A DNA stretch of 64,000 nucleotides, from positions 13,875 through 77,874 of the forward strand of contig JAZDPV010000012.1 in NCBI GenBank assembly GCA_043797265.1, read 5' to 3'. Positions within the stretch are counted from its first letter, which is position 1; each line of letters begins with the position of its first letter. Below, piece by piece: positions 11,072-64,000 of this stretch. A model generated the notes under the pieces. The model had not been told where the DNA came from. It worked only from the letters and a program-made list of their open reading frames with translations, and ran no database searches. Position numbers and translations under genes: made by a program. This stretch comes from an archaeon (GTDB lineage Archaea > Nanobdellota > Nanobdellia > Pacearchaeales > GW2011-AR1).

Positions 11072-11434
11072 CTATTTCTTCGAAACATAACTAATAAAAC
11101 CCATCAGCATCTTAGCAATCTCTCGCAACTCATTAGTTAATTCATCCAAAACATCCTCACTTAAATATCCAAATTCTTTCGCCACACACAACTGACTCTC
11201 GACTTCATTCACACTTCCCAAAGCAATATAAAAAAATTGAATAACATCTTTATCTGTCCTCCTCCCACAACCCTCTGCAATATTAGAAGAAATACTAACA
11301 ACCGCTCGTCTCAACTGCGAAGCCAATGCATAATTCTCCATCGAAGGAAACTTATCTATAAGTTCATAAATTCTCTTTGCAATTTTAACCGACCTCTTCC
11401 AAACATCTAATGTTCTGAATTCTCTCACCACCAA
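11072..11434 (-). CDS. four-helix-bundle protein (23S rRNA intervening-sequence protein family)
   Basis: LDVWKRSVKIAKRIYELIDKFP...YALASQLRRAVVSISSNIAEG...FFYIALGSVNEVESQL matches the family signature. Confidence 0.85.
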   Translation of the reverse strand: MVVREFRTLDVWKRSVKIAKRIYELIDKFPSMENYALASQLRRAVVSISSNIAEGCGRRTDKDVIQFFYIALGSVNEVESQLCVAKEFGYLSEDVLDELTNELREIAKMLMGFISYVSKK

Positions 11435-11471
11435 AACAAAAACAATCGCAAAGTTATAAACCCACTGCCAA

Positions 11472-11573
11472 GTCCCTGAAACCTGAATTCTGAAACCTGA
11501 AACCTATTGCGAAGCAACCGTCCCTGAAACCTGAATTCTGAAACCTGAAACCTGAAAACGCAAAGCGTTTTCA
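11472..11573. repeat. mosaic: CTGA heptads, GAA-triloop hairpin, CTGA heptads, AAA-loop hairpin
   Basis: gtccctgaaacctgaattctgaaacctgaaacct occurs twice, separated by ttgcGAAgcaa (11507-11517). The block ends in gaaaacgcAAAgcgttttc (11554-11572), which overlaps the stop of the 11571 gene. Confidence 0.9.
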
Positions 11574-13586: not shown

Positions 13587-13656
13587 TCCGCGCGCATCCG
13601 TATCTTCCGCACCTCGTCAATATTTCCCCCTACCTCCTACCTCCTACCCCTATCCT
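13587..13656. repeat. degenerate TCCGNG units followed by a CTA heptad array
   Basis: tccgcgcgca tccgtatct tccgcacc, then ctacctc ctacctc ctacccc cta. The CTA at 13637 is the stop of the acidic-protein gene. Confidence 0.7.
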
Positions 13657-14215
13657 TCTTCCCCTTATCTTCAAACCCCATGCTCTCCAAAACAGAATGC
13701 TTCCTCTCTCGCTCCGACGCAATCTCATCATAACTCTTCATCCCCCTCCCGACATCATAAACACCTTCGTCATTTTTCTTCCCAGAATAAAGCCTCGCCT
13801 CCCCCGTATTATACAAATCCCCCTCGTCCTTCCCTTTATACAAATCATCCCCACGCCCTGTTTCATAAAACCCCTCTCTCTTCCTTCCATCCGCCCCATA
13901 AAAATTCCCCGTCTTGACATTATAAAAATCCCCGCCAACAAATTCCTCGCTATCCTTCCACTCCCTCTCAATTCTCTCGTTTCTAAGAACCTCCTCTAAA
14001 TCCTCCTTGCTCCAACTCGCCTCCCCGCTCCCCGTCGACAAAATCGTATCCCCAATAAAAAAATCGCTAACCTCCTGCGCGACCTCTTCCAAATCATCCT
14101 CAAGCACATCCTCCAACTCCGCCTCTAAATCCTCATCAAAAATCCCGACGTCATCCTCGCCTTCCAACTCCTCTAAATCTTCTTCCGTCTCGACCTCATC
14201 CTCTTCCTCAACCAT
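13637..14215 (-). CDS. hypothetical highly acidic protein
   Basis: The N-terminal half is D/E-rich and the C-terminal half is G/Y/K-rich. No motif was recognised. Confidence 0.5.
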   Translation of the reverse strand: MVEEEDEVETEEDLEELEGEDDVGIFDEDLEAELEDVLEDDLEEVAQEVSDFFIGDTILSTGSGEASWSKEDLEEVLRNERIEREWKDSEEFVGGDFYNVKTGNFYGADGRKREGFYETGRGDDLYKGKDEGDLYNTGEARLYSGKKNDEGVYDVGRGMKSYDEIASERERKHSVLESMGFEDKGKKDRGRR

Positions 14216-14329: not shown

Positions 14330-14413
14330 TCCGCGTAATCCAAAAAATCCAAAAATCCGCGTTCCTCTCCCTTCCGTGAAATCCAATCAATCCGTGCAAT
14401 CCGCGTTGCTATT
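14330..14413. repeat. degenerate ATCC/TCCGYG repeat block ending in GCTATT
   Basis: atccgcgta atccaaaaa atccaaaa atccgcgtt ... tccgtgaa atccaatca atccgtgca atccgcgttgctatt. It covers the last 8 codons and the stop of the GxxExxY gene. Confidence 0.75.
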
Positions 14414-14788
14414 CTTAAAACTACTAAGACAATTAACCTTCCTCTTAATTTCCGCCTCCCGACCAAAATTCAAAACCAACCCAACTTCCTTTCCCGTCGC
14501 TTTCAAGTAATTCAACAACTGCACGCCTTCTGCCTCACCAATTTCCTTAATCGCCTTAACTTCAATAATCACCCTCCCATCGACGATAAAGTCAACATAA
14601 TAATCACCCATATTCTCACCTTTATAAAAAACATTAATAGGCACTTGTCTCTCAAAACTCAACCCCTCAACCCTAAACTCATAAGCCAAAGCCCTCTCAT
14701 AAATCTTCTCAAGAAAACCATAACCCAACTCATTATAAACTCGATAAAACACCCCAATAATTTTCTCCGTCATCCCTTCATATTTCAT
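14387..14788 (-). CDS. GxxExxY-family protein (PD-(D/E)xK-like)
   Basis: GFLEKIYERAL is the GxxExxY motif, and VDFIVDGRVIIEVKA is the DxxxEVK motif. Confidence 0.8.
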   Translation of the reverse strand: MKYEGMTEKIIGVFYRVYNELGYGFLEKIYERALAYEFRVEGLSFERQVPINVFYKGENMGDYYVDFIVDGRVIIEVKAIKEIGEAEGVQLLNYLKATGKEVGLVLNFGREAEIKRKVNCLSSFKNSNADCTD

Positions 14789-22732: not shown

Positions 22733-22767
22733 CTTTATCTAATCCCTCCAAATACCTTTCTAAAAAA

Positions 22768-22800
22768 TCCGTGTTAGTCCGTGTTAGTCCGTGTGCTATT
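22768..22800. repeat. decamer array ending in GCTATT
   Basis: tccgtgttag tccgtgttag tccgtgtgct att. On the - strand this is AATAGCACACGGAC TAACACGGAC TAACACGGA followed by T6. Confidence 0.9.
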
Positions 22801-22825
22801 ATTCTCTCATATAAGTTACACCTCT

Positions 22826-23560
22826 TCATCTCATCTCCTTAAGTTTTCTCAAAACAAAATCCGAAAACTCAATCGACTTCTCCGTCGCTGATTTAATATT
22901 AGCATAACATAAACCGCACGGCGAAATAACTCCATTAACCCAATCAGGAATTTCAGAAACCTTCTTCTTCACAACCATTTTCGCAACACTCGGAAAATTC
23001 GCACGCATCCCACCCCCAGCCCCGCAACAAATCGCGTCCTTTCGATTCAATTCAAACTCAAAAACTTTTCCACCCAATCTCTCAATCACCTCACGCGGCT
23101 CCTCATAAATCCCGCTATACCGCCCAAGATGACACGGGTCGTGATACGCAACCAACTCCCTCTCCCTATCCTCGCCCCTCCATTTAATATTTTTCTTCTT
23201 CAACGCATTCAGAATCGCAACCGTCGCGTGCTCAACCTCAATATCCCAACCCTTAACAAACTCCGGATAAATTTCTTTGAAAGTATGATAACACGACGGA
23301 CAATTAGTAATAATTTTCTTAATCCTATTTTTCTTAAACAAATCAAAATTCTTATTCGCCAATTTCCGCGCATCCTTCCGATAACCCGCATTCAAAACCG
23401 GCAACCCGCAACAAACCTCATCCATCGGCAACATCACAAAATCAATCCCCAACCGATTAAAAATCTCCTTGTAATTCTCCAACTCCGTCGACAAAACCCC
23501 CCTCGTCAAACATCCCGGATAATACAACGTCTTCTTCCCAAACAATCCAAACAACCCCAT
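22826..23560 (-). CDS. CCG-domain (cysteine-rich) Fe-S oxidoreductase subunit, GlcF/LutA C-terminal-like
   Basis: YYPGC, CCG, YHDPCHLGR and CCGAGGG are present. The start was chosen at MGLFGLFGKK because the upstream part of the ORF track crosses a repeat element. Confidence 0.75.
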   Translation of the reverse strand: MGLFGLFGKKTLYYPGCLTRGVLSTELENYKEIFNRLGIDFVMLPMDEVCCGLPVLNAGYRKDARKLANKNFDLFKKNRIKKIITNCPSCYHTFKEIYPEFVKGWDIEVEHATVAILNALKKKNIKWRGEDRERELVAYHDPCHLGRYSGIYEEPREVIERLGGKVFEFELNRKDAICCGAGGGMRANFPSVAKMVVKKKVSEIPDWVNGVISPCGLCYANIKSATEKSIEFSDFVLRKLKEMR

Positions 23561-23584
23561 ATCAAAACCCTCCTCCACACACAC

Positions 23585-23680
23585 CGCGCGACGCGACGAA
23601 GCCGCCAAGATATGGCAACGAAGTTGCCCAAATAGCGAAGCCGTCGAAGATATGAGAGCGAAGCTCTCCAAATTTTCCCT
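23585..23680. repeat. multi-hairpin element copy 3 (module duplicated, no C-rich tail)
   Basis: cgcg-cga-cgcg, cgac-GAA-gccg, aagatat, ggcaac-GAA-gttgcc, caaat, agcgaagccgtcg, aagatat, gagagc-GAA-gctctc, caaattttccc. Confidence 0.8.
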
Positions 23681-34226: not shown

Positions 34227-36804
34227 CGTCATCATAACCACCCGCAATTCTAAACCGCCCCTTACAAACACCATTCTTCAAACCGCCACACAATCGACTC
34301 TCCCTCGACCGCCCCCGATAATCATAACTCACAACAACCTCGTCAAAATTTTTCTCCGTCACCGAAATATCAAAATCAATATACCTCGCATACCACCGAC
34401 CCGCCTCCTTCCAAAACGAACCAGGATTATTCACCACCGGCGCAGTCCTGTCAACAACAACCTCACTCTTCACAGACTCGACACCATTCCCCGCAACATC
34501 CTCGACGACAAACCAATATTCAACCAAACCATCCGGCAAATCAACCGAAACATCACACTCCCAATTCCTCCCGACCTCAACGCAACCCTCAACCTCCTCG
34601 ACAAATCCATCATAATTCAAAAAAACTCCCGACGGATTAACCTCCCTAAACCTGACACTAAAATCCCCGTCAGAAAAACCACCGCTCGGCTCGACCTTAA
34701 GAATCACGGGCTTTATCGAATCAACAAAAAAATTCAAACTATGCTCCTCTTTCTCAACCGAATCCGAGCACCTCACAAAAACATCATGCTCCCCCTCGGA
34801 AAAAAATCTGCTGCCAAAATACCCGTCGCAATTCCGGCACAACCTCACCCACCTCGGACTCGACGCCGAATAATCAATATACTCTATCAATCCCAAACTC
34901 TTGCTCCCAACAACTTCAAAAGGAATATTCCTCGCAGAAAAAACATCATCATCCGTCGGAGAACTAACAACACATAAACCACCACCAGCACAAACATCCC
35001 CTGCATCATCACAACCAAACCTGCATTCCTCACAATTATCAACATTTTTACTATCACAATAAGACTCATCCGTCCCGCCATTCACACAAAAATGACTCAC
35101 ATTAGATTCACAAAACGTCCCTTCCTTACAAGACCTCGTCGACAAACTCTCGCCGCAATCACCATCGTCAAAACACTCAATCGGATTAACCCAAATCGGA
35201 TTCGTATAAAATCTCCTCTTCCCATCCTTGCTCACGCAATCAAAACGATAATACTTCTTCCCGGCGTCAATCTCCAAACCAACCTCTGAAAAAGTACCAG
35301 TACTATTATAATAATAACCAGGATTATCAAGCATATCCGAATAAACCCTGCGCTCAACTCCCGCATCAATAATTCCCTCATAAAAAGAAAAATTACAATA
35401 CCCGTGAATAAAAACATTCGCTACCATCTCCACCTCCCCGCCCTCAAGAATATTAATCTCCTCGCCAAACCCCGCGACATCCCCATGCAAATTATCAAAT
35501 TTAATAATAAGAAAATCACCATTACTCACATAACAATTCCCATTCTTCAACGCCTCAAAAATACTCTCCTTAAACTCACTATCCCCGACGGTATACGGCG
35601 AATAACAACAAGTATACTCCTTCCCAAAATTCTGAAAATCCCCATGCGCATCCGACCCCGCCGAAATAAAAACCTTCCGCCCATCCAAAAGAACATCCTT
35701 CCACTTCTCAATCCCCTCCTTTAAATCTACAACAACCTGTTCATCCTTAATGTCCCCATTCCAAATCTGCAAACCAGAAAACGGCAAAGAATAATCATGC
35801 CAAGTATCAACAGTTTCTAAACCTAAAATTATATCTATATTTGACTCCGGATGTGCAGCATAACTAAATCCACCCTGACCATTAACATTATTAATCACTT
35901 CCTCACAAGAAGGATTTTTCGACGAAAGCACATCAACAAAATTATCCTCGATATAATCCGAATAATCATAAGCCAGCAAATGATTCCCCCCTCCAACTAA
36001 ATTATAATCACAATTAACTTCCGTGCCAACCAAACACTTGTCATAACTACTACAATCATTCTTAAAATCACCCCAACTTAAACCAATATCATCATCTTTA
36101 TGTTCACTAAACGAATTCGAATGGTCAGTAACCGTCACCCAATCCAAACCCAAAACATCCAACACCGAAACAGTCGCACTAATCGGAGCACCAAACTCCC
36201 CCGCCGAAGAAGATAAAAATTTTGTATCTGTATAACTACTATGATAATGACTATCCCCACAATACCAATTAGGAATTTTTGGCAAATCTGAATCAATCTG
36301 AACAACCAAAGGATAAAACTCATTATCCGGCTCAGCATCACCGTCGGGAAACCCAACCCCCTTATACTTAGCAGTAATTTTAATACTATTATTACCATCC
36401 TTCTTAAATAAATCAGGATTAAGATATTCAACATCATACCAAACACGAGTATTAATCGTGCAATAAGAACCCGAATCTATAGACAATCCTAAATCCGTAC
36501 AAGAAAAACTTTTAACTAACCTACTCTTATTATTCCCATCATAAATTTCAACAGCATAAAAAGAATATTCCCAATAATCACTTCCATACGCATCCCTTAC
36601 CTCAAACAAAACGGGAACAAGTTCGCCAGACTCGATTCTATGGGGCACGTCGACGATAAATTCTCTCTGAGCAGTCTCTTCGACATAAAGTGGTCTGATT
36701 ACGCCGGAATCATTCTCCTCGATCATATCCTTATCTACATAAGCCGACACCATAGAAAATAAAACTAAAAATAATAAAATAACTACAAAAAATTGCTTCC
36801 TCAT
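34165..36804 (-). CDS. secreted PHP-domain protein with C-terminal Ig-like repeats
   Basis: The signal peptide is MRKQFFVVILLFLVLFSMVSA. PHP motifs are GDSHYHSSYTD, VTDHSNS, AAHPE and GSDAHGD. The middle is Cys-rich. Confidence 0.7.
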   Translation of the reverse strand: MRKQFFVVILLFLVLFSMVSAYVDKDMIEENDSGVIRPLYVEETAQREFIVDVPHRIESGELVPVLFEVRDAYGSDYWEYSFYAVEIYDGNNKSRLVKSFSCTDLGLSIDSGSYCTINTRVWYDVEYLNPDLFKKDGNNSIKITAKYKGVGFPDGDAEPDNEFYPLVVQIDSDLPKIPNWYCGDSHYHSSYTDTKFLSSSAGEFGAPISATVSVLDVLGLDWVTVTDHSNSFSEHKDDDIGLSWGDFKNDCSSYDKCLVGTEVNCDYNLVGGGNHLLAYDYSDYIEDNFVDVLSSKNPSCEEVINNVNGQGGFSYAAHPESNIDIILGLETVDTWHDYSLPFSGLQIWNGDIKDEQVVVDLKEGIEKWKDVLLDGRKVFISAGSDAHGDFQNFGKEYTCCYSPYTVGDSEFKESIFEALKNGNCYVSNGDFLIIKFDNLHGDVAGFGEEINILEGGEVEMVANVFIHGYCNFSFYEGIIDAGVERRVYSDMLDNPGYYYNSTGTFSEVGLEIDAGKKYYRFDCVSKDGKRRFYTNPIWVNPIECFDDGDCGESLSTRSCKEGTFCESNVSHFCVNGGTDESYCDSKNVDNCEECRFGCDDAGDVCAGGGLCVVSSPTDDDVFSARNIPFEVVGSKSLGLIEYIDYSASSPRWVRLCRNCDGYFGSRFFSEGEHDVFVRCSDSVEKEEHSLNFFVDSIKPVILKVEPSGGFSDGDFSVRFREVNPSGVFLNYDGFVEEVEGCVEVGRNWECDVSVDLPDGLVEYWFVVEDVAGNGVESVKSEVVVDRTAPVVNNPGSFWKEAGRWYARYIDFDISVTEKNFDEVVVSYDYRGRSRESRLCGGLKNGVCKGRFRIAGGYDDVKIVVRDLAGNSADYVLEGL

Positions 36805-37085
36805 AATTTTTTCTCGCAATATTTTCCTACAAAAATTCCTACAAAAACAAAAATTAAAATTAATAACAAAGAATAAACAAAAAATCCTATTATCCCAGTA
36901 TTTCCAAAAAAAGGCAGACAGCCTAAGAAAAAAATAGGATAAAAAATAAAAGCTACCCAAGAATCTATTTTAAATGGACAACTATATCCAACAAATCCTA
37001 ATGCAATAGAATAATAAATTCCTATAAGAACATAAATCCCTCCAACTCCCCCCCCAATCAAACCACCTTTCCAAGCCCTCTCCAT
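36801..37085 (-). CDS. hypothetical small membrane protein
   Basis: It has three hydrophobic helices and an ATGA overlap with the PHP gene. Confidence 0.5.
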   Translation of the reverse strand: MERAWKGGLIGGGVGGIYVLIGIYYSIALGFVGYSCPFKIDSWVAFIFYPIFFLGCLPFFGNTGIIGFFVYSLLLILIFVFVGIFVGKYCEKKL

Positions 37086-37141
37086 CCAACCTAAACAAAA
37101 CCAAACTATTTAAAATCTCCTAAAAATTATTCTCCAAATAT

Positions 37142-40066: not shown

Positions 40067-40148
40067 ACTCCCTCACACCATTCACATTTCCCACTCGGAC
40101 ACTCCCCCTCCAACAACTCCAACGCCCCCCTCCAAACCTTCTCCTCCA

Positions 40149-40805
40149 TCATCTCCCCTCGCACCACTCACACGATTTAGTTGGACAATCAGAGTTTAAT
40201 AATTTTATTGCACTCTTCCATTCATCCTCTGCAACTTCAACATCAACCTTCATCTTCACCAACTCGCTATCAAAAATAACTTCTCCCGTCGACAAAACTT
40301 CCTTCGGCACATAAAACAAAAGAAAAAAATAATCCTCCGTCTCGTAGCCGTTCTTCCTCAAAAGAAAATTATAAACATTCTGTTGCAATCTATAATGCTC
40401 CGCCGTGTCGTCTTTGACCGCATAACCCCTCGTCTTGTAATCCAACACAATCAACTTCTTCCCTTTCATCAAAATATTATCAACCGCCCCGTGCAACTCA
40501 TTCCCATTCTTGTCCGTCCACGAAATCCCCTTAAAATTATTCTGCCAAACCTTCATCTTCTCCGAATCATCAAACAACTTCATATCCTCGCAATGACAAT
40601 TGTCGCACAACTCCGGCGGCAACAACCCCTTGTCCCGAAACTTGTCAAAATGAATTTTCAAAATTCTATCCATCCCCGACGGCAGCGACGGAAAAACTCC
40701 GCTCGGCCGCTTCCAAACTTTATGTTGCGTCAGCCAAAAGCATCTCGGACACTCCTTAAACAAATTCAAAACCGACGGCGACAACTTATATCCCATTCCA
40801 AACAA
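40149..40805 (-). CDS. Cas4-like PD-(D/E)xK nuclease with four-cysteine cluster
   Basis: CPRCFW at the N-terminus, LDYKTR, QQNVYNFLL (the QxxxY motif) and C-terminal CPTKSCEWC. Confidence 0.75.
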   Translation of the reverse strand: MFGMGYKLSPSVLNLFKECPRCFWLTQHKVWKRPSGVFPSLPSGMDRILKIHFDKFRDKGLLPPELCDNCHCEDMKLFDDSEKMKVWQNNFKGISWTDKNGNELHGAVDNILMKGKKLIVLDYKTRGYAVKDDTAEHYRLQQNVYNFLLRKNGYETEDYFFLLFYVPKEVLSTGEVIFDSELVKMKVDVEVAEDEWKSAIKLLNSDCPTKSCEWCEGR

Positions 40806-40858: not shown

Positions 40859-40893
40859 TCCTGCGTTAGTCCTGCGTTAGTCCGCGTGCTATT
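40859..40893. repeat. 11-nt array ending in GCTATT, overlapping the gyrA stop
   Basis: tcctgcgttag tcctgcgttag tccgcgtgct att. On the - strand this reads GAG TAA TAGCACGCGGAC TAACGCAGGAC TAACGCAGGA. Confidence 0.9.
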
Positions 40894-43462
40894 ACTCCCC
40901 CCTCTCCTCAAACGGCACTCTAACCAAATCCGAAACCCTATCCCCGTCCTTCAACTTAATCACCCTAACCCCCTGCGTCGCCCGTCCCATAATCCGAATA
41001 TTCTTCACCGGCGTCCTAATCACAATCCCTTTCTTCGTCGTCACAATAATATTATCGCTATCAATAACCGACTCCGACTTCACAATCTCTCCCGTCTTCG
41101 CCGTAACCTTCATATTAATCACGCCCTTCCCCGCACGCCCCGTCAGCCGATAGTCCTCAATCTCACTCCTCTTCCCATAACCATTCCTCGAAATCGTCAA
41201 AACCGAAAACCCCTCTCCTATTTTCAACTTTCTATTTTCTATTTTCCCGGCCGGCAACACCTCAAGCGAAACCACCTTGTCATTTTTATTTAATTTAATC
41301 CCAGCGACGCCATAAGACGCCCGCCCCATCGCACGAACATCCTCGTTCTTAAAATGAATCGCCTGCCCTTTCGCCGTCACCAGCAAAACTTCCTGCCCTT
41401 CCTTCATCGGCTTGACATCAACCAAACTATCTCCCGTCTCCACAACTTTAATCGCCTTAACCCCGCCCTTCCTCGGATTCGCAAACTGCGCCAGCTCAAT
41501 CTTCTTCACAACACCCTTCTCCGTCGCCATCATAAGATAATCTTTAAACTCTTTCACCGCCAAAACCGACGTCACTCTCTCATCCTTCAACTCAAGCAAA
41601 TTCACAATCGCCTTCCCCCTAGTCGACTTCGCCGACGCCGGCACCTCATACGCCTTCAACCAATGCACCTTTCCCTTGTCCGTAAAAAACAACATATAAT
41701 CGTGCGTCGAACAAGTCAGCAATTCTTTCACGAAATCCCCCTCGCTCAAATCCGAACCAATCACACCCCGCCCGCCCCGTCGCTGTTCCCTGTATTGCTC
41801 CAAATCCAATCTCTTAATATAACCCCTGTCCGTAATCGTCACCACCACATCCCTCTTGTCAACCAAATCCTTCTCCTCCAACTCCTTCACCGCCCCGACA
41901 ATCTTCGTCTTCCTCGCGTCCCCATAATTCGCCTTCATCTCCTCCAACTCCTTCCGAATAATTTTCAAAATCAATTTCTCGTCCCCAAGAATCTTCTTCA
42001 ATTTCTCAATCAACACCCTCAGCTCCTTCTCCTCGCTCTTCAACTTGTCAAACTCCAACGACGTAATCTGATGCAACCTCATTTCCAAAATCGCCTCAAC
42101 CTGTCTGTCGCTCAAACTATATTTCAACTTCAACCCCACAGCCGCCTCGGTCTTGCCCTTCGCCGCCCGAATCAATTTTACAACAGCGTCGATATTACTC
42201 TGCGCAATCAACAACCCATCAACAATATGCAGCCTCTTCTCCGCCTTGTCCAAATCAAACTCGTTCGTCTTCCTCACGACCTTCTGCCTATGCCCCACGT
42301 ATACCTTGATATACTCGCGCAAAGTCAACAACCTCGGCACAAAATCAACCAACGCCAACATATTCGCATTAAACGCGACCCTCAACTGAGTAAATTTATA
42401 CAAACGATTCAAAGTAAACTTCGGCTCAGCATCTTTCCTCAACTCAATCACAACCCGAACCTTCCCCTTCGACGACTCGTCCCGAATATCTGCAACATCC
42501 GGCAGCTTCTTGTCCCGAACCAGCATCGCAATCTGCTCAACCAAAACCGACTTGTTCACCTGATAAGGAACTTCGCTAATCACAATCTTCATCTTGTCCT
42601 TCGACCTCCTCGGCTCCTCAACAATCGTCTTTCCCTCGACAACCAACTTCCCCCTCCCCTCAGTATAAATTCTTCTTATCTCCCCCGAAACCGAACCGCC
42701 CGTCGGAAAATCCGGCGCCTTAATCGCAGCAATCAAATCCTTGTCATCGCAATTCGGATTATCAAGCCACGTCAAAATCGCATCGCAAGTATTATTCAAA
42801 TTATGCGGCGGAATATTCGTCGCCATTCCAACAGCAATCCCGCTCGCCCCGTTCAAAAACAAATTCGGAATCCGCCCCGGCATCACGACCGGCTCCTCGT
42901 TCGTATTAGAATAATTCAACATCATCTTCACCGTCTTCTTGTCAATATCCATCAGCAACTCATCAGAAATTTTCGCCATCTTCGCCTCGGTATACCTGTA
43001 AGCCGCCGCGCCGTCGCCATCCATCGAACCAAAATTTCCCTGCCCGATAACCAGCGGATATCTAAACGACCAATCCTGCGCCATCCTGACCATCGCCTCA
43101 TAAATCGAAGCGTCCCCATGCGGATGATACTTCCCCATCGTGTCCCCGACAATCGCCGCCGACTTCTTCGTCTGCTTATTAAAATAAATCCCTAAGTCAT
43201 TCATCGCCCACAAAATCCGACGCTGAACCGGCTTCAACCCATCCTCCGCCGCCGGCAACGCCCTCGCAACAATAACCGACATCGCATAATTCAAATACGC
43301 CTCCCGCATCTCCGTCGAAATCTCGGCATCAATCAACTCCTTCGCCATCACCGACGCCTTCAGCTCCTCGCGCCTCTTCGCAAAATCCTCCGAATCTTTT
43401 TCCGCCTCGTCCATCTCAATCTCCTTCACATCATCATTCTCAACAACTTCATCTTTGTTCAT
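40892..43462 (-). CDS. gyrA: DNA gyrase subunit A
   Basis: GLKPVQRRILWAM, KYHPHGD and AAYRYTEAKM, followed by C-terminal beta-pinwheel repeats. Confidence 0.95.
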   Translation of the reverse strand: MNKDEVVENDDVKEIEMDEAEKDSEDFAKRREELKASVMAKELIDAEISTEMREAYLNYAMSVIVARALPAAEDGLKPVQRRILWAMNDLGIYFNKQTKKSAAIVGDTMGKYHPHGDASIYEAMVRMAQDWSFRYPLVIGQGNFGSMDGDGAAAYRYTEAKMAKISDELLMDIDKKTVKMMLNYSNTNEEPVVMPGRIPNLFLNGASGIAVGMATNIPPHNLNNTCDAILTWLDNPNCDDKDLIAAIKAPDFPTGGSVSGEIRRIYTEGRGKLVVEGKTIVEEPRRSKDKMKIVISEVPYQVNKSVLVEQIAMLVRDKKLPDVADIRDESSKGKVRVVIELRKDAEPKFTLNRLYKFTQLRVAFNANMLALVDFVPRLLTLREYIKVYVGHRQKVVRKTNEFDLDKAEKRLHIVDGLLIAQSNIDAVVKLIRAAKGKTEAAVGLKLKYSLSDRQVEAILEMRLHQITSLEFDKLKSEEKELRVLIEKLKKILGDEKLILKIIRKELEEMKANYGDARKTKIVGAVKELEEKDLVDKRDVVVTITDRGYIKRLDLEQYREQRRGGRGVIGSDLSEGDFVKELLTCSTHDYMLFFTDKGKVHWLKAYEVPASAKSTRGKAIVNLLELKDERVTSVLAVKEFKDYLMMATEKGVVKKIELAQFANPRKGGVKAIKVVETGDSLVDVKPMKEGQEVLLVTAKGQAIHFKNEDVRAMGRASYGVAGIKLNKNDKVVSLEVLPAGKIENRKLKIGEGFSVLTISRNGYGKRSEIEDYRLTGRAGKGVINMKVTAKTGEIVKSESVIDSDNIIVTTKKGIVIRTPVKNIRIMGRATQGVRVIKLKDGDRVSDLVRVPFEERGE

Positions 43463-43545: not shown

Positions 43546-43788
43546 TTAACTATTCCCATTTTCCCTCCACGCCCCGCGTTTATTCGCGTTCATTCGTGAG
43601 CCATTTTTCTTCCCCAATTTATTTTTATCAACAACCAAAATCGGGAAACTCACATTGGTATACCCACACTTCGAACACCTCATCTTCGGTATAATCCCAA
43701 ATAAATTCCCAAGCCCAAAGGTATACCCAACATTAGTCGACCTGCATCTCGGACAAAACGAAACTTTAACTTTCTTCACCATTTCCAA
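43546..43788 (-). CDS. zinc-ribbon protein between gyrB and gyrA
   Basis: CPRC...CSKC. The C-terminal tail is encoded by a decamer repeat. Confidence 0.55.
   Translation of the reverse strand: MEMVKKVKVSFCPRCRSTNVGYTFGLGNLFGIIPKMRCSKCGYTNVSFPILVVDKNKLGKKNGSRMNANKRGAWRENGNS
43574..43603. repeat. decamer array of the TCGYGTTNAT type
   Basis: ccgcgtttat tcgcgttcat tcgtgagcca, read as GSRMNANKRG. Confidence 0.8.
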
Positions 43789-43813: not shown

Positions 43814-43899
43814 GGCAACGAAGTTGCCTTAACTTAAACCTGACGCCTGACGCCTGACGCCTGACGCCTGATTTATGAAAATCTTTGATTTTCATAAAT
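43814..43899. repeat. mosaic: GAA-triloop hairpin, four CTGACGC heptads, 13-bp hairpin overlapping the gyrB stop
   Basis: ggcaac-GAA-gttgcc (43814-43828), ctgacgc x4 plus ctgattt (43840-43874), and atttatgaaaatc-ttt-gattttcataaat (43871-43899). Confidence 0.9.
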
Positions 43900-46353: not shown

Positions 46354-46394
46354 TAATCTCTCCCCCTACAATTTACACAACCCGCCAAGTCACA

Positions 46395-46476
46395 CTTCCA
46401 GCGAAGCGGACTTCCAGCGAAGCGGACTTCCAACTTCCAGCGAAGCGGACTGATTAAAATGCTCCGCATTTTAATC
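46395..46476. repeat. 16-nt CTTCC-AGCGAAGCGGA units (three, plus one 7-nt partial) and a 10-bp hairpin containing the rps28e stop
   Basis: cttccagcgaagcgga x2, cttccaa, cttccagcgaagcgga, then gattaaaatg-ctccg-cattttaatc (46452-46476). Confidence 0.9.
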
Positions 46477-46785: not shown

Positions 46786-46793
46786 CTTAAATC

Positions 46794-46828
46794 CTACCCC
46801 CTACCTCCTACTTACTACCTTCTATCTT
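46794..46828. repeat. CTA-type heptad array spanning the rpl7ae stop
   Basis: ctacccc ctacctc ctactta ctacctt ctatctt. The CTA at 46808 is the TAG stop of rpl7ae. Confidence 0.85.
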
Positions 46829-47107
46829 AGCTTCCCCAACCTCGATAACCGCAACCGCCGACGCCGGCCGATTAATCCCAACAGAAATCCCCAACTTCTC
46901 ACGCGAATCAACCTCGACAAACTTAATATTTTTCTCCTCACATAAAATACTCAAATGCTGCGTCAGCTCCTTCGGCTCAACATCCTTCGCGACAACAACC
47001 ATTTTCGCAACCCCCCGCTCGACCGCCTTCGTCACCTCATTCACGCCCTTATCAACTTTCCCGGTCTTCGCCGCCTTCTCAACCACATCATAAACACTAT
47101 TCGCCAT
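46808..47107 (-). CDS. rpl7ae: 50S ribosomal protein L7Ae
   Basis: KGVNEVTKAVERGVAKMVVVAKDVEP...LCEEKNIKFVEVDS. Confidence 0.9.
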   Translation of the reverse strand: MANSVYDVVEKAAKTGKVDKGVNEVTKAVERGVAKMVVVAKDVEPKELTQHLSILCEEKNIKFVEVDSREKLGISVGINRPASAVAVIEVGEAKIEGSK

Positions 47108-47314: not shown

Positions 47315-48406
47315 TTACCGCCAGGAATCACAAATTACTTCATCCGTCCTCTCCCTCGGCGAAATATCAACCTTATCCAAATCCCAATAAACTCCTGACG
47401 CCTGATTTCTGACGCCTGATTTCTGCGCCGCGCGCCACATCTTCAACCCCAAATACCCAATCATCCCCGCATTATCAACCAGCAAACTCCTCGGCGGCAC
47501 AAATAACTTGCAACCTCGCTCCTCGCACATAATCCTGCACATTTCCTGCAACCGCGAATTACAAGCAACCCCGCCGCCCAACAAAAGTTCTTTCTTTCCA
47601 GTATGCGCCAACGCCCTCTCCGCAACCTCAACCAGCATCGCAAACACAACCTCCTGCATCGAATACGCAATCTTAAATTTATCCTCGCCCCTCTCAATCA
47701 AATTCTTAATCTTCGTCTGCATCCCCGCAAACGCAACATCCATCCCCTTCACCGAATACGGCAACTCCAAAATCTCAACCCATTTTCTTTTAGATTCGTG
47801 TCCATCTGTGTTCATTCGTGAGCAATTATTTTCTTTCAATGTCCGTGAGATATACTCCTCCGCCATCTTCTCAATCTTAGGCCCAGCAGGAAATCCAAGT
47901 TTCATAAATCTCCCAACCGTATCAATAAAATTCCCAACTCCCAAATCCAACGTCTCACCAAAAACCCGATACTTCCCCGCCTCGTAAGCAATCACCTGAG
48001 TATTCGCTCCCGACGCATAAAGCATAACCGGATCCCTCGCCCCGACACTCTCCCCAATTTCCAAATGTGCAACACAATGATTAACACAAACAACCGGTAT
48101 ACCAAGCCGCCCCGCAATCTTCTTCACAAATTCCATCCCCTCCAAAAGACACGGGGCCAACCCCGGCGCATTCGAAAACGCAACAGCGTCGATATTTTCC
48201 TCAGAAATCCCTGCCTCATCCAAAGCCCGCTTATACAAACCATCGCCAACTTTCCTATGATGCTTCCGAACTTCCAAAGGAATCATCCCGCCTTCTTCAG
48301 TAAAATATGAATCCTTAACATTAGAAAGTATATTCCCTTCTATATCAACAACCGCCACACCAAACGTATGCGCCGTACTCTCAACCCCCAAAATAAACTT
48401 TCCCAT
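47315..48406 (-). CDS. kae1: tRNA N6-adenosine threonylcarbamoyltransferase Kae1
   Basis: ILGVESTAHTFGVAV, VNHCVAHLEIG and SGANTQV. It contains two repeat-encoded inserts. Confidence 0.92.
   Translation of the reverse strand: MGKFILGVESTAHTFGVAVVDIEGNILSNVKDSYFTEEGGMIPLEVRKHHRKVGDGLYKRALDEAGISEENIDAVAFSNAPGLAPCLLEGMEFVKKIAGRLGIPVVCVNHCVAHLEIGESVGARDPVMLYASGANTQVIAYEAGKYRVFGETLDLGVGNFIDTVGRFMKLGFPAGPKIEKMAEEYISRTLKENNCSRMNTDGHESKRKWVEILELPYSVKGMDVAFAGMQTKIKNLIERGEDKFKIAYSMQEVVFAMLVEVAERALAHTGKKELLLGGGVACNSRLQEMCRIMCEERGCKLFVPPRSLLVDNAGMIGYLGLKMWRAAQKSGVRNQASGVYWDLDKVDISPRERTDEVICDSWR
47395..47429. repeat. CTGA heptad/14-mer array inside kae1
   Basis: ctgacgc ctgattt ctgacgc ctgattt ctgcgcc, read as AAQKSGVRNQASGV. 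Confidence 0.85.
47796..47825. repeat. decamer array inside kae1
   Basis: tcgtgtccat ctgtgttcat tcgtgagcaa, read as CSRMNTDGHES. Confidence 0.8.
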
Positions 48407-62161: not shown

Positions 62162-64000
62162 TGCTCCCTGTCCAAAACACTCCCCCTCTTGTTAATCCTC
62201 GGCCTCCCACTCTCTTTATCTTTTCTCAAAGTAATATCCAAACTTTTCAACAATTCACCAACCCCATCTTCAAAATTCCTAACCTCACTCGCCTCACAAA
62301 CCCCAACTCTTTTCTTTAATTCGTGTTCATTCGTGTTCATTCGTGAGCCCTTACTTTCTCCGTCCATCCGCGAGCCGACCTCAGAAAAATTAATAATCAA
62401 ATCCGCCAAATACGAAACCAACAACAAATCGTGCTCGACGACAAACGCCGTCTTTCCCCTCTCGACCATCACATCCTTAATCGCCTTCGCAACCAAAATC
62501 CTCTCCTCAACATCCAGATAAGCCGACGGCTCGTCCAAAAAATAAACATCCGCGTCCTTCGCCAAACATCTCGCAACGCTAAATCTCTGCAACTCCCCGC
62601 CAGACAATTCCCTCAATTTCTTCCCAACCAAAACCCCAAGATTAAACACCGACGACAATTTCTTATTTATCTTCTCCCTAAAAACAATATCCCGAACAAA
62701 CTCCTCGCTCTCGCTAAACAAATACTGCGACTTATAAGAAATATCCAAACCTAAATCAAGTCCGTGTTTGTCCGTGTTTGTCCGTGTGCTATTTTTCTTA
62801 CCACCAAGTCGTTCAGATATCTCCACATCACAAGAACAATTTTCATCGAGCTCGCCCACCAGCGCCCGCACAAATGACGTCTTCCCCGTTCCATTCTTTC
62901 CCAAAATCCCAATCACATGATTCTCCCTAATTTCCCCACCCTTCACATTTAACTCAAACCCCGAATCAAATCTCAAATTAAAATCAGGCCACTCCCCGAT
63001 TTTTCCCCCAGACACCGACGCATTTTTCGTAAAATTAAAATTCAATTCCTTATCCCGAATCAATAAATTCTCCTCTTTCAAAAATCCCTTCAGATAAGCA
63101 TTAACACCTTCCCTCGAACTCTTGACCCCACTCACCGTCCCGAAAACTCCCTGCGCCCCATAAAACACATTTAAATAATCCGTCAAATAATCCAGCACCA
63201 ACAAATCATGCTCGACGACAATCACCGTCTTATCTCGACCAATCTCCTTGATAAAATCCGAAACTCTCAATCTCTCTCCAATATCCAAAAACGCCAACGG
63301 CTCGTCGAAAAAATAAATATCAGCGTCGCCCAAACTCGCCGCCAAAATCGCAACTCTCTGCAACTCACCACCGCTAAGCTTGTCCATCCTATTCCCCAAA
63401 ATATTCTCGACATTCAACTTCTTCGCTAATTCCCTAATTTCTTTTTTGTCCCCACGATTCTCCAACAACTCCATCACACCAATGTCCTTCGCCAACACCG
63501 ACAAATTCTGCGGCTTATACGAAACCTTCTTGTCTCCAAGTAAATCAAAATATTTCTGCAACTCACTCCCCTTGAATTTCCCAACATCAATTTCTATATT
63601 TCCAGACAAAATTTTTACAGCAGTCGATTTCCCAATCCCATTCCTCCCGAGCAAACCCAAAACTTTCCCAACCTTAGGAATAGGCAAACCATACAACGCA
63701 AACCCATTCGCCCCATATCGATAAACCAAATCTTCCTCACTCACCGACGGCAAATTCACAATATCAATCGCACCCAACGGACATCGCTTCACACAAATCG
63801 CGCACCCAACACAACTTTTCTCATCAATAACACACTTGCCCGATGAAGGTGGCACCTTGGTGCCCTCTATAGAGGGTATGCCGCGTGCGGCGCTACCAAT
63901 AACGACGCAACTATCAGACTCCTTCTTCTCAACCGGACAATATTTCTTACACTCGCGCCCGCACACCGTCGGCTTACATTTCTCCCGATGAACAATCGCC
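62131..64000 (-). CDS. abce1: ABCE1 (RNase L inhibitor homolog); 5' end lies outside the window
   Basis: An Fe-S domain (CPVE..., CVGCAICVKRCP) and two ABC domains (GLLGRNGIGKST, GILGKNGTGKTS). The frame stays open to base 64000. Confidence 0.92.
   Translation of the reverse strand, partial: AIVHREKCKPTVCGRECKKYCPVEKKESDSCVVIGSAARGIPSIEGTKVPPSSGKCVIDEKSCVGCAICVKRCPLGAIDIVNLPSVSEEDLVYRYGANGFALYGLPIPKVGKVLGLLGRNGIGKSTAVKILSGNIEIDVGKFKGSELQKYFDLLGDKKVSYKPQNLSVLAKDIGVMELLENRGDKKEIRELAKKLNVENILGNRMDKLSGGELQRVAILAASLGDADIYFFDEPLAFLDIGERLRVSDFIKEIGRDKTVIVVEHDLLVLDYLTDYLNVFYGAQGVFGTVSGVKSSREGVNAYLKGFLKEENLLIRDKELNFNFTKNASVSGGKIGEWPDFNLRFDSGFELNVKGGEIRENHVIGILGKNGTGKTSFVRALVGELDENCSCDVEISERLGGKKNSTRTNTDKHGLDLGLDISYKSQYLFSESEEFVRDIVFREKINKKLSSVFNLGVLVGKKLRELSGGELQRFSVARCLAKDADVYFLDEPSAYLDVEERILVAKAIKDVMVERGKTAFVVEHDLLLVSYLADLIINFSEVGSRMDGESKGSRMNTNEHELKKRVGVCEASEVRNFEDGVGELLKSLDITLRKDKESGRPRINKRGSVLDREQKLKNHWAIF
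62321..62377. repeat. decamer array and a degenerate second copy inside ABCE1
   Basis: tcgtgttcat tcgtgttcat tcgtgagccc ... tccatccgcgagccg, read as GSRMDGESKGSRMNTNEHE. Confidence 0.85.
62761..62793. repeat. decamer array ending in GCTATT inside ABCE1
   Basis: tccgtgtttg tccgtgtttg tccgtgtgct att, read as KNSTRTNTDKHG. Confidence 0.9.
63851..63891. repeat. three abutting palindromes inside the ABCE1 Fe-S domain
   Basis: ggcaccttggtgcc, ccctctatagaggg and gccgcgtgcggc, read as GSAARGIPSIEGTKVPP. Confidence 0.85.

What the first reader, a model, noticed from the sequence alone, without database searches (positions are those of the whole stretch)
22768..22800. Decamer arrays that carry periodic stop codons outside genes but are stop-free where they lie inside genes
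On the - strand, 22768-22800 reads AATAGCACACGGAC TAACACGGAC TAACACGGA followed by T6, 25 nt after a stop codon. At the end of gyrA the element overlaps the stop itself: GAG TAA TAGCACGCGGAC TAACGCAGGAC TAACGCAGGA (40859-40894). Degenerate copies lie at 14330-14413 and 13587-13613. The same element sits inside ABCE1 (62761-62793), where every TAA is AAA (CACGGACAAA), and it is read as KNSTRTNTDKHG. A sister family, which reads GCTCACGA ATGAACACGA ATGAACACGA on the - strand, is found only inside - strand ORFs: ABCE1 at 62321-62377, kae1 at 47796-47825 and the zinc-ribbon ORF at 43574-43603. In that family the unit contains TGA at 10-nt spacing. In ABCE1 the array ends exactly where a third unit would bring TGA into frame, and the sequence there reads TTA instead.
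Basis: seen in the sequence. Interest (0 to 1): 0.7.

Follow-up and report, generated by a model that had tools for sequence, protein, structure and literature searches.

The report
Nuclease-linked decamer repeats inserted into genes
The 10-base repeats are copies of the end-piece of a tiny selfish gene cassette (a GxxExxY nuclease gene) found across bacteria and archaea. In this small archaeon the end-piece has been copied into spacers between genes and, in frame, into essential genes.

Summary
On the - strand the window holds at least 8 copies of a ~33-nt module: a head AATAGC/AATGGC followed by three C[AG]CG[AG]A cores 10 nt apart. I found 5 strict arrays where 0.17 are expected, and none on the + strand.

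The intragenic copies are insertions. Orthologues of ABCE1 and Kae1 lack them or carry other array types, and a relative has the same module at a different ABCE1 site. One insert is a clean 63-nt filled/empty difference against an 86%-identical orthologue.

The module is the 3' end of a GxxExxY (PDDEXK_3) nuclease gene, present in the window at 14387-14788. In a relative that gene ends in the very sequence found at 22768-22807.

The family spans prokaryotes. In bacteria, triple-decamer arrays form inverted ends that bracket PDDEXK_3 genes, and many gene-less doublets exist. There is no target duplication, no Rfam family and no paper that I could find.

A parallel system (heptamer arrays plus a 23S-rRNA-IVS-type four-helix-bundle gene) is also in the window.

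"Stop-free inside genes" is mostly survivorship, because only one frame of the module is open.

How the module moves is inferred, not shown.

The parts
14387..14788 (-). GxxExxY / PDDEXK_3 nuclease gene (133 aa). It is the only protein-coding partner of the decamer arrays in the window. Its last 9 codons (KNSNADCTD*) are the head and first units of an array.
   Evidence: Pfam PF13366 E 2.8e-40. NCBIfam TIGR04256 E 2.9e-39. AF2 model pLDDT 88.8 with a minimal PD-(D/E)XK fold and a disordered tail at 123-133. D66, E76 and K78 are invariant or nearly so.
14330..14413 (-). Run of about 8-9 decayed forward decamer units (CGCGGAT, CACGGAT, TTGGAT and similar) that overlaps the stop of the nuclease gene and ends in T-runs.
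   Evidence: Sequence. Forward arrays likewise follow the PDDEXK_3 gene in relatives L002, L125-L129, L206 and L208.
22765..22807 (-). Gene-less copy of the module: AGAGAATAATAGCAC + (ACGGACTAAC)x2 + ACGGA + T6. It lies 25 nt after the stop of a CCG-domain gene. This is the reported finding.
   Evidence: nhmmer E 5e-12 against the module profile. Nearly identical to the 3' end of a PDDEXK_3 gene in relative L208 (GAGAAAAATAGCACACGGACTAACACGGACTAACGCGGATTTTATTT).
40859..40894 (-). Gene-less copy whose head supplies the gyrA stop codon (GAG TAA TAG CAC GCG GAC TAA CGCAGGAC TAA CGCAGGA).
   Evidence: nhmmer E 0.0075.
13587..13613 (-). Degenerate copy (GCGGAAGATACGGATGCGCGCGGATTTTATT), 24 nt after the stop of ORF 13637-14215.
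62758..62817 (-). In-frame insert in ABCE1: box GAACGACTTGG, linker, head AAAAATAGCAC and three decamers with AAA spacers. It is translated as SERLGGKKNSTRTNTDKHG.
   Evidence: Absent from most orthologues. The same 55-60-nt module occurs at another ABCE1 site and in a spacer of L001.
62316..62378 (-). 63-nt in-frame insert in ABCE1 made of two tandem CACGAAT-type modules: GGCTCGCGGATGGACGGAGAA, then GGCTCACGAATGAACACGAATGAACACGAAT.
   Evidence: Clean filled/empty difference against the 86%-identical orthologue in L002. Protein alignment.
47793..47831 (-). In-frame insert in Kae1 (AAATAATTGCTCACGAATGAACACAGATGGACACGAATC, read NNCSRMNTDGHE).
   Evidence: Orthologues have no insert or other array peptides in the same loop.
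43574..43613 (-). Module near the 3' end (last ~20 codons) of the 80-aa zinc-ribbon ORF (GGAAGAAAAATGGCTCACGAATGAACGCGAATAAACGCGG, read KKNGSRMNANKRG).

Best explanation
The decamer arrays are the cis-acting end-module of a pan-prokaryotic family of very small selfish cassettes. The only gene of these cassettes is a ~120-130-aa GxxExxY (PDDEXK_3) nuclease.

The module is a short head (ATAG.AC, AAC or AGC) followed by three 7-nt cores (C[AG]C[AG]G[AG]A[TC]). The cores are exactly one helical turn apart and the 3-nt spacers are free to vary.

In bacteria, two such modules in inverted orientation bracket the gene, and many gene-less doublets exist. In this DPANN lineage the module is in forward orientation at the 3' end of the gene, and sometimes also upstream as a direct repeat.

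The window holds one gene copy (14387-14788) and at least 7 gene-less copies of the module. These got to their places by insertion.
- In spacers they sit 0-25 nt after the stop of a co-oriented gene, mostly followed by a T-run.
- In coding regions only insertions in the single open frame survive. That is the frame used by the nuclease gene itself, and it encodes K-N-S-T-R-T-N-T-D-type hydrophilic residues. The inserts are translated as extra surface loops of ABCE1 and Kae1.

Inferred, not shown: the nuclease binds the three phased cores as an oligomer on one face of the DNA and cuts at the module boundary. Repair from another copy then spreads the module, in a homing-like way and without target-site duplication.
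For: Shown in the window and its DPANN relatives:
1. The arrays are non-random and strand-specific: 5 observed against 0.17 expected, and 0 on the + strand.
2. The window's PDDEXK_3 gene runs into an array. Forward arrays likewise follow the gene in DPANN relatives L002, L125-L129, L206 and L208.
3. DPANN PDDEXK_3 proteins end in ...EKNSTRTNTD*, the peptide of the ABCE1 insert. The 3' end of the L208 gene is nearly identical to the window's 22765-22807 module.

Shown for insertion:
4. ABCE1 orthologues lack the inserts. The same 55-60-nt module (box, head and 3 decamers) lies at another ABCE1 site and in a spacer of L001.
5. One insert is a clean 63-nt filled/empty difference against L002.
6. 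One Kae1 loop carries different array types in different lineages: KNSTQMNADERG, KNLTTDDTDSHR, KNEPRTSADERG.

Shown for the family at large:
8. The sequence logo is sharply bounded, and 137 of 145 arrays have exactly 3 units.
9. 85 of 145 arrays have an inverted partner 3-465 nt downstream (one further at 803 nt), against 7 upstream.
10. PDDEXK_3 is the largest recurrent neighbouring gene family, and all 6 such genes are bracketed by a forward and a reverse array.

Shown starting from the gene:
11. 44 of 76 PDDEXK_3 loci from metagenomes have terminal inverted repeats scoring at least 12, against 1 of 76 in shuffles.
12. Exact 6-mers repeated at lag 10 occur at 19-20 per kb next to the gene and 0.2-0.6 per kb elsewhere. 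There is no enrichment at lags 7, 8 or 11-13.
13. The array is the only 45-nt perfect run between two 86%-identical ABCE1 genes.
14. The protein model is a confident minimal PD-(D/E)XK nuclease with its catalytic D...ExK conserved.
Against: - No biochemical link between the nuclease and the arrays exists. The association is positional only.
- Only about 5% of arrays found by pattern search lie next to a PDDEXK_3 gene, and none of the 120 viral loci does. The gene could therefore be a passenger, or could home into pre-existing repeats.
- In DPANN the arrays are direct repeats or solo copies, not inverted. The bacterial architecture does not transfer directly.
- All window copies lie in or after - strand genes. 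No copy of either orientation lies in the ~40% of coding sequence on the + strand, which a simple copy-and-insert model does not explain.
- DPANN arrays have identical spacers within one array (TAA/TAA, AAA/AAA, GAA/GAA). This hints at local triplication or concerted evolution rather than plain copying of a master.
- The Foldseek matches are weak (TM at most 0.54) and do not identify a substrate.
Confidence: 0.6

Rival explanations
1. RNA-level cassette signals. The arrays act in the transcript, not in DNA. In bacteria the forward and reverse arrays pair into a ~26-30-bp stem around the nuclease ORF, as in 23S rRNA intervening sequences. RNase III cuts that stem, so the cassette is tolerated anywhere, even within operons. 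In archaea, which I recall mostly lack RNase III, direct arrays plus a T-run mark 3'-end formation or processing. Gene-less copies are leftovers or co-opted 3'-UTR/terminator modules.
For: - The bacterial elements have the size and architecture of the Coxiella IVS: 428-444 nt, a 28-bp terminal stem, one small ORF and RNase III excision (PMC4990558).
- Bacterial cassettes sit between operon genes, for example between what I read, from their terminal sequences, as ispD and ispF in L013.
- Intergenic DPANN copies lie 0-25 nt after the stop of a co-oriented gene, and most end in GGATTTTT(T).
- In L206 an array on the opposite strand follows a gene on that strand.
- The sibling heptamer arrays flank a bona fide IVS-type gene.
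Against: - This does not explain how the modules spread to new sites or into coding regions, so it complements the mobile-element reading rather than replaces it.
- Single arrays have no RNA structure (-1.0 kcal/mol).
- The gyrA copy has no T-run.
- Intragenic copies are in frame and stop-free, so they are read through rather than acting as terminators.
Confidence: 0.2
2. The arrays are older, autonomous repeats (REP-like or binding sites for a host factor). The GxxExxY gene is a homing parasite that targets the centre of array doublets. In that case the arrays in the window owe nothing to the nuclease.
For: - Gene-less arrays and doublets with 3-50-nt spacers far outnumber gene-bearing ones.
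- Arrays in viral contigs have no PDDEXK_3 gene nearby.
- There is no target-site duplication.
Against: - Array core types differ among PDDEXK_3 loci (CACGGAT, CGCAGAT, CACAGAT, C.CTGAT), and the two ends of one cassette match each other.
- The arrays supply the start codon and N-terminus of the gene in bacteria (MNADYQDFK) and its stop and C-terminus in DPANN. That implies long co-evolution, not opportunistic targeting.
Confidence: 0.12
3. Ordinary microsatellite-type slippage. Each array arose locally by triplication of a 10-mer, independently at each site, and the resemblance between sites is compositional.
For: Spacers within a DPANN array are identical, and units 2 and 3 of the gyrA array share an extra base that unit 1 lacks. 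The window is full of short tandem repeats.
Against: - A shared non-repeated head, and in three copies a shared upstream box, extend the homology beyond the repeat.
- The unit number is fixed at three.
- The same sequence occurs at unlinked loci, in other genomes and in other phyla.
- Chance expectation in the window is 0.17 arrays.
Confidence: 0.04

Closest known systems
23S rRNA intervening-sequence (IVS) elements, e.g. Coxiella burnetii and Leptospira (PMC4990558)
   Same: - Bacterial GxxExxY cassettes measure about 430-520 nt overall, versus 428-444 nt for the Coxiella IVS.
- They have terminal inverted repeats of about 26-32 nt that could form a stem.
- They carry one small ORF of unknown function.
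- They show a sporadic, horizontally scattered distribution, and the mobility mechanism is unknown.
- The window also has a true IVS-family gene (PF05635, 11072-11434) flanked by tandem arrays.
   Different: - They are not in rRNA: the window has no rRNA, and the cassettes sit between protein genes.
- The gene is a PD-(D/E)XK nuclease rather than the four-helix-bundle S23p.
- The ends are internally periodic (3 x 10 nt).
- Many gene-less copies exist.
- In DPANN the arrays are direct or solo, and some lie in frame in protein genes.
REP / REPIN sequences with their RAYT transposase
   Same: - Short (~30 nt) repeats are scattered through spacers.
- They often form inverted doublets.
- The same repeats flank a nuclease-type gene thought to mobilise them.
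- There is no target-site duplication.
   Different: - REP units are hairpin palindromes. The decamer module is unstructured (-1.0 kcal/mol) and built of three direct repeats.
- The partner protein is a PD-(D/E)XK nuclease, not an HUH/Y1 transposase.
- The distribution spans Bacteria, Archaea and viral contigs.
Rickettsia palindromic elements (RPE)
   Same: A repeat family that inserts in frame into conserved protein genes and is translated as an extra surface segment, as well as into spacers.
   Different: From memory, RPEs are about 100-150-bp palindromic elements restricted to Rickettsia, with no known partner gene. The module here is about 33-60 nt, non-palindromic and tied to a nuclease gene.
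Cyanobacterial STRR heptamer repeats and Borg tandem repeats
   Same: Short tandem units occur both between genes and inside genes or RNA genes. Borg repeats create disordered protein segments.
   Different: From memory, Borg repeat units are unique to each locus and variable in copy number. Here the same unit recurs at unlinked loci and across phyla, with a fixed number of three. The 10-nt unit is not a multiple of 3.
MITEs derived from DDE transposons
   Same: Terminal inverted repeats and many gene-less short derivatives of a gene-bearing element.
   Different: 32 forward/reverse pairs show no target-site duplication, and no DDE transposase is present.

Membership tests
   Window copies at 22765-22807, 40859-40894, 62758-62817, 62316-62378, 47793-47831 and 43574-43613.
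   Gene 14387-14788 with arrays at 14330-14413. Eighty-fold enrichment of lag-10 repeats at gene borders in 80 loci.
   There are no arrays of the reverse orientation in the window, even when mutational decay is allowed for. DPANN relatives have direct or solo forward arrays.
23S rRNA intervening-sequence elements | Located in 23S rRNA (helix 25 or 45) and excised by RNase III | tested here: not met
   The Rfam gathering search of the window finds only two tRNAs and no rRNA. RNase III excision cannot be tested with these tools.
23S rRNA intervening-sequence elements | Small ORF bracketed by ~28-bp complementary termini | tested here: inconclusive
   Met for the bacterial PDDEXK_3 cassettes and for a bacterial IVP gene (L120). 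Not met for the window's own gene copies, which have arrays on one side only.
REP/REPIN-RAYT | The repeat unit is an imperfect palindrome (hairpin) and the partner is an HUH Y1 transposase | tested here: not met
   The module folds at -1.0 kcal/mol. The partner gene is PD-(D/E)XK.
MITE / DDE transposon | Target-site duplication flanking the terminal inverted repeats | tested here: not met
   29 of 32 forward/reverse pairs have a flanking direct repeat of 0-1 nt.
Simple slippage microsatellite or Borg-type tandem repeat | Locus-specific unit and variable copy number | tested here: not met
   The same unit and head occur at unlinked loci, in other genomes and in other phyla, and 137 of 145 arrays have exactly three units.
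Rickettsia palindromic elements | In-frame insertion of a repeat into conserved protein genes | tested here: met
   ABCE1 and Kae1 inserts are absent from orthologues. This is a functional analogy only. The defining ~100-150-bp palindromic sequence is absent.

The most novel reading that the evidence does not exclude
GxxExxY nucleases with their triple-decamer ends are a previously unrecognised class of nuclease-driven mobile element: no DDE or HUH enzyme, and no target duplication. The class spans Bacteria, Archaea and viral contigs. Its sibling is the four-helix-bundle (23S-rRNA-IVS protein) gene with heptamer ends, which would finally explain what 'IVS proteins' are for. In DPANN archaea the end-modules are copied on their own, in the sense orientation of genes, and keep writing new hydrophilic loops into essential proteins such as ABCE1, Kae1 and aminoacyl-tRNA synthetases.
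Probability: 0.35. Interest if true: 0.85.

Novelty: new variant of a known kind. Interest (0 to 1): 0.72.

Why it matters
GxxExxY (TIGR04256/PF13366) and four-helix-bundle (TIGR02436/PF05635) proteins are among the commonest "function unknown" small genes in prokaryotic genomes. In the papers I could search, the origin and function of 23S rRNA intervening sequences are still described as unclear, more than 25 years after their discovery (PMC4990558).

Each gene family turns out to come with its own phased tandem array: 10-nt units for the nuclease and 7-nt units for the helix bundle. Those arrays also exist in large numbers without the gene. That gives a concrete, testable model of protein plus cis site for both families.

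For DPANN archaea it identifies a source of lineage-specific inserts in otherwise highly conserved essential proteins. It also explains why contigs carrying these genes are mostly only 1-3 kb long.

For annotation, it flags a class of spurious or extended ORFs with peptide strings such as NTDEHG, TNEHE and NADERR.

Tried and rejected
- **Rfam.** A gathering search of the window and of 14 bacterial array loci found only tRNAs and a TPP riboswitch.
- **Literature.** No paper holds the array sequences. GxxExxY, PDDEXK_3, TIGR04256 and PF13366 appear only in passing. No paper links IVS proteins with tandem arrays.
- **PDB by sequence.** No hit for the nuclease. Foldseek gives only generic PD-(D/E)XK relatives (Cas4 SSO0001, lambda exonuclease-like, Hjc, EndA) at TM 0.54 or less, which does not identify a substrate.
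- **PADLOC.** No defence-system match for the nuclease or the IVS-type protein.
- **The box GAACGACTTGG.** It precedes three module copies but is not enriched in the window: 14 matches against 14.5 expected. It is therefore not a general part of the module.
- **Target-site duplication.** None was found.
- **Mutational decay as the cause of the strand bias.** Decay-tolerant scans still find no + strand arrays.
- **Replication strand as the cause of the strand bias.** L206 has an array on the other strand, after a gene on that strand. Gene orientation therefore fits better, but the absence of arrays from + strand genes in the window remains unexplained.
- **Viral contigs.** They carry arrays, but no PDDEXK_3 or IVS-type gene lies in those loci.
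- **Contig look-ups.** They failed for P0001, P0141 and P0121, so the rest of the 122-kb source contig could not be examined.

Full report
**1. Observation**

- 22800-22768 is AATAGCACACGGAC TAACACGGAC TAACACGGA followed by T6. It lies 25 nt after the TGA of ORF 22826-23671.
- At gyrA (40892-43462; Pfam DNA_topoisoIV plus GyrA C-terminal repeats) the stop TAA is the first triplet of the element.
- Decayed copies follow at 14413-14330 and 13613-13587.
- In ABCE1 (62131-63966), Kae1 (47315-48406) and an 80-aa zinc-ribbon ORF, the arrays are read as KNSTRTNTDKHG, GSRMNTNEHE, CSRMNTDGHE and GSRMNANKRG.

With a strict definition (at least 2 cores C[AG]CG[AG]A spaced 8-12 nt) there are 5 arrays on the - strand and none on the + strand. 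One hundred Markov simulations gave a mean of 0.17 and never an array of three. A scan tolerant of the local mutation bias still found nothing convincing on the + strand.

**2. Context**

The window comes from a DPANN archaeon. ABCE1 and Kae1 match 100% to proteins of one 122-kb NCBI "MAG: archaeon" contig, and their relatives are named Pacearchaeota or Nanoarchaeota.

The + strand is extremely G-poor (A 34.7, C 29.9, T 22.9, G 12.6 %) whichever strand the genes are on. Relatives show the mirror image of this composition.

**3. The intragenic copies are insertions**
- In an alignment of 15 ABCE1 orthologues, the array segments are absent from most sequences.
- The insert KNSTRTNTDKH is shared only with the 81%-identical P0002.
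- The 76%-identical P0004 has KNSTRTNTDEHG at a different position, and P0012 has LMNTDEHG there too.
- At the DNA level, the window insert, the P0004 insert (locus L001) and a spacer copy in L001 share 55-60 nt. That stretch comprises a box GAACGACTTGG, a linker, AGAAAAAT(T)AGCAC and three decamers.
- Against the orthologue in L002 (86% nt identity), the CACGAAT-type insert is a clean 63-nt filled/empty difference at 62316-62378.
- In Kae1, one loop carries NNCSRMNTDGHE in the window, KNSTQMNADERG, KNLTTDDTDSHR or KNEPRTSADERG in other lineages, heptamer-derived peptides in others, and nothing in most.

**4. Where the module comes from**

ORF 14387-14788 is a GxxExxY protein (PF13366 PDDEXK_3, E 2.8e-40; TIGR04256, E 2.9e-39). 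Its last codons (KNSNADCTD*) are the head and first units of the array run at 14413-14330.

Forward arrays likewise follow the PDDEXK_3 gene in relatives L002, L125-L129, L206 and L208.

DPANN homologues end in ...EKNSTRTNTD* (P0134, P0137, P0141). This is the ABCE1 insert peptide, in the same frame, with the stop supplied by the second TAA spacer.

In L208 the gene ends GAGAAAAATAGCACACGGACTAACACGGACTAACGCGGATTTTATTT. That is practically the reported element at 22765-22807. The "element" of the finding is therefore a gene-less copy of the 3' end-module of this nuclease gene.

**5. The family is pan-prokaryotic**

I estimate about 35 chance hits for the whole collection from pattern degeneracy; this figure was not computed by a tool. 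The hits come from Verrucomicrobiota, Acidobacteriota, Planctomycetota, Chloroflexota, Proteobacteria, Bacteroidota and Thermoplasmata, among others.

*Shape of the module.* The logo is sharply bounded: T.AAC | CACGRAT GNA CACGRAT NNA CACGRAT, with no conservation outside. Exactly three units occur in 137 of 145 arrays.

*Pairing.* 85 of 145 arrays have an inverted partner 3-465 nt downstream (one further at 803 nt), against 7 upstream.

*Neighbouring genes.* PDDEXK_3 is the largest recurrent neighbouring gene family. In all six cases the gene is bracketed by a forward array upstream and a reverse array downstream. The cassettes sit between housekeeping genes; from the terminal sequences I read the neighbours in L013 as ispD and ispF.

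*Starting from the gene.* I analysed 80 metagenome loci.
- 44 of 76 have terminal inverted repeats scoring at least 12, against 1 of 76 in shuffles. Others have direct repeats.
- A sequence-agnostic test counted exact 6-mers repeated at a given lag. At lag 10 there are 19-20 per kb within 60-80 nt of the gene ends, 0.2 per kb in the gene and 0.25-0.65 per kb far away. Only lag 9 is also raised.
- Core types differ among loci (CACGGAT, CACAGAT, CGCAGAT, CGCGGAT, C.CTGAT). The heads (ATAGAAC, ATAGGAC, TGGGAC) resemble the window's AATAGCAC.
- In one bacterial clade the upstream array supplies the start codon and N-terminus (MNADYQDFK...).

*Ends.* Terminal inverted repeats extend 2-7 nt beyond the cores, and there is no target-site duplication.

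*Location.* Bacterial arrays are depleted in long open frames: 27% lie inside one, against 74% of random positions.

**6. A sibling system in the same window**

ORF 11072-11434 is a 23S-rRNA-IVS / four-helix-bundle protein (PF05635, E 5e-39; TIGR02436). It is preceded by two arrays of the heptamer TTTCAGG/ATTCAGG at 11466-11565.

Six such TCAG heptamer arrays lie on the - strand and none on the + strand. One is in the gyrB-to-zinc-ribbon spacer, one in Kae1 (SGVRNQASGV) and two in ProRS. A similar imperfect run (GTTTCGG/GTTTCAG) lies in ArgRS. A bacterial IVP gene (L120) is bracketed by inverted heptamer arrays.

**7. What is known**
- No Rfam family covers the arrays.
- No paper in the searchable library contains the sequences.
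- The GxxExxY/PDDEXK_3 family is listed only as "unknown", with multiple transfers between Bacteria and Archaea (PMC3424549).
- The closest described objects are 23S rRNA IVS elements. The Coxiella IVS is 428-444 nt, has a 28-bp terminal stem and one S23p ORF, and is excised by RNase III. Its origin and function are described as unclear (PMC4990558).
- The AF2 model of the window protein is confident (pLDDT 88.8) and shows a minimal PD-(D/E)XK fold. The array-encoded tail is disordered. PDB matches are generic: Cas4 SSO0001 at TM 0.54, then lambda-exonuclease-like enzymes, Hjc and EndA.

**8. Interpretation**

*Shown:*
- the homology of all copies;
- insertion into ABCE1 and Kae1;
- the tight positional link to PDDEXK_3 genes in both domains;
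- the fixed 3 x 10-nt architecture;
- the abundance of gene-less copies;
- the absence of target duplication.

*Inferred:*
- The nuclease recognises the three phased cores. Their spacing of one helical turn puts them on the same face of the DNA, and conserved cores with free spacers are the usual signature of a binding site.
- Its cuts drive copying of the module.

The head TAG and the TGA/TAA spacers close two frames. The third frame is the one the nuclease gene itself uses, and it encodes hydrophilic residues. Only such insertions survive in essential genes.

The array is nevertheless the longest perfectly conserved stretch (45 nt) between the window and L002 ABCE1 genes. This suggests constraint or homogenisation at the nucleotide level.

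**9. Open points**
- The DPANN arrangement (forward arrays only, at gene 3' ends, mostly with T-runs) differs from the bacterial inverted arrangement.
- No module lies in or next to + strand genes in the window.
- Spacers are identical within DPANN arrays.
- Only about 5% of pattern-found arrays are next to the gene.

An RNA-level role (a stem for RNase III in bacteria, a 3'-end module in archaea) is a serious complement or rival. So is the idea that the gene homes into pre-existing repeats.

Noticed in passing
window 11072-11565 (-), also 43830-43881, 47385-47429, 52299-52343, 52785-52829, 60595-60640: A 23S-rRNA-IVS / four-helix-bundle gene (PF05635, 11072-11434) is preceded by two arrays of the heptamer TTTCAGG/ATTCAGG. 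The same TCAG heptamer family occurs as gene-less arrays in a spacer and in frame in Kae1, ProRS and, as an imperfect GTTTCGG/GTTTCAG run, ArgRS. All copies are on the - strand (6 against 0). A bacterial homologue (L120) is bracketed by inverted heptamer arrays. This looks like a sibling of the decamer/nuclease system.
   Followed up: partly
whole window; also L001, L002, L124-L129, L204, L205: Extreme strand asymmetry. The + strand is A 34.7, C 29.9, T 22.9, G 12.6 %, with GC skew of -0.08 to -0.63 in every 2-kb window, whichever strand the genes are on. All related DPANN contigs have C at about 9-12% on the corresponding strand. This fits massive C-to-T pressure on one strand.
   Followed up: no
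window 63843-63896 (-): A 54-nt in-frame insert in the ABCE1 N-terminal region (SAARGIPSIEGTKVPPSSG) is built of three short palindromes: GCCGCACGCGGC, CCCTCTATAGAGGG and GGCACCAAGGTGCC. It folds at -21 kcal/mol and is unusually C-rich for this strand. It is absent from the 86%-identical L002 orthologue but present, with similar peptide, in more distant orthologues (P0003, P0020, P0037). This is a different, hairpin-type insert family.
   Followed up: partly
window 46394-46432 and 56600-56644 (+): Two unlinked perfect tandem arrays of related 16-mers: ACTTCCAGCGAAGCGG x2.4 and AGCGAAGCGGACTACC x2.8. This is a third shared repeat family. The second array lies at the 3' end of ORF 55967-56647.
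   Followed up: no
window 36000-40805: A low-GC island (32% against about 43%) holds a 974-aa Type IIG restriction-methyltransferase (37142-40066; PADLOC REase_MTase_IIG, E 5e-183). Next to it is a Cas4-like PD-(D/E)XK_1 gene (40149-40805), immediately downstream of the gyrA array. The island is probably horizontally acquired.
   Followed up: partly
window 62761-62805 versus L002 5557-5601: The decamer array in ABCE1 is the only 45-nt perfectly identical run between two orthologues that are 86% identical overall, although it encodes a non-conserved loop.
   Followed up: yes
Kae1 orthologues (alignment A4), loop after ...AEEY: One loop of Kae1 is a hot spot. Different DPANN lineages carry different decamer-derived or heptamer-derived peptides there, all entering in the same KN(S) frame. 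P0246 also has an array-derived N-terminal extension (GTQMNADERR).
   Followed up: partly
viral loci L216, L223, L224 and L209, L221, L222: In some viral contigs, triple CACGAAT arrays sit directly upstream of an ATG (for example GAACACGAATTATCACGAATTGACACGAATTATGG). Others carry longer phage-specific CACGAACGTG arrays. No PDDEXK_3 gene lies in these loci.
   Followed up: no
window 13629-13665, 46793-46829, 54107-54145, 6907-6939: Further heptamer arrays of the type CCTACCT/CCTACCA on the + strand (AGGTAGG on the - strand), mostly close to the ends of - strand ORFs. They were not analysed.
   Followed up: no
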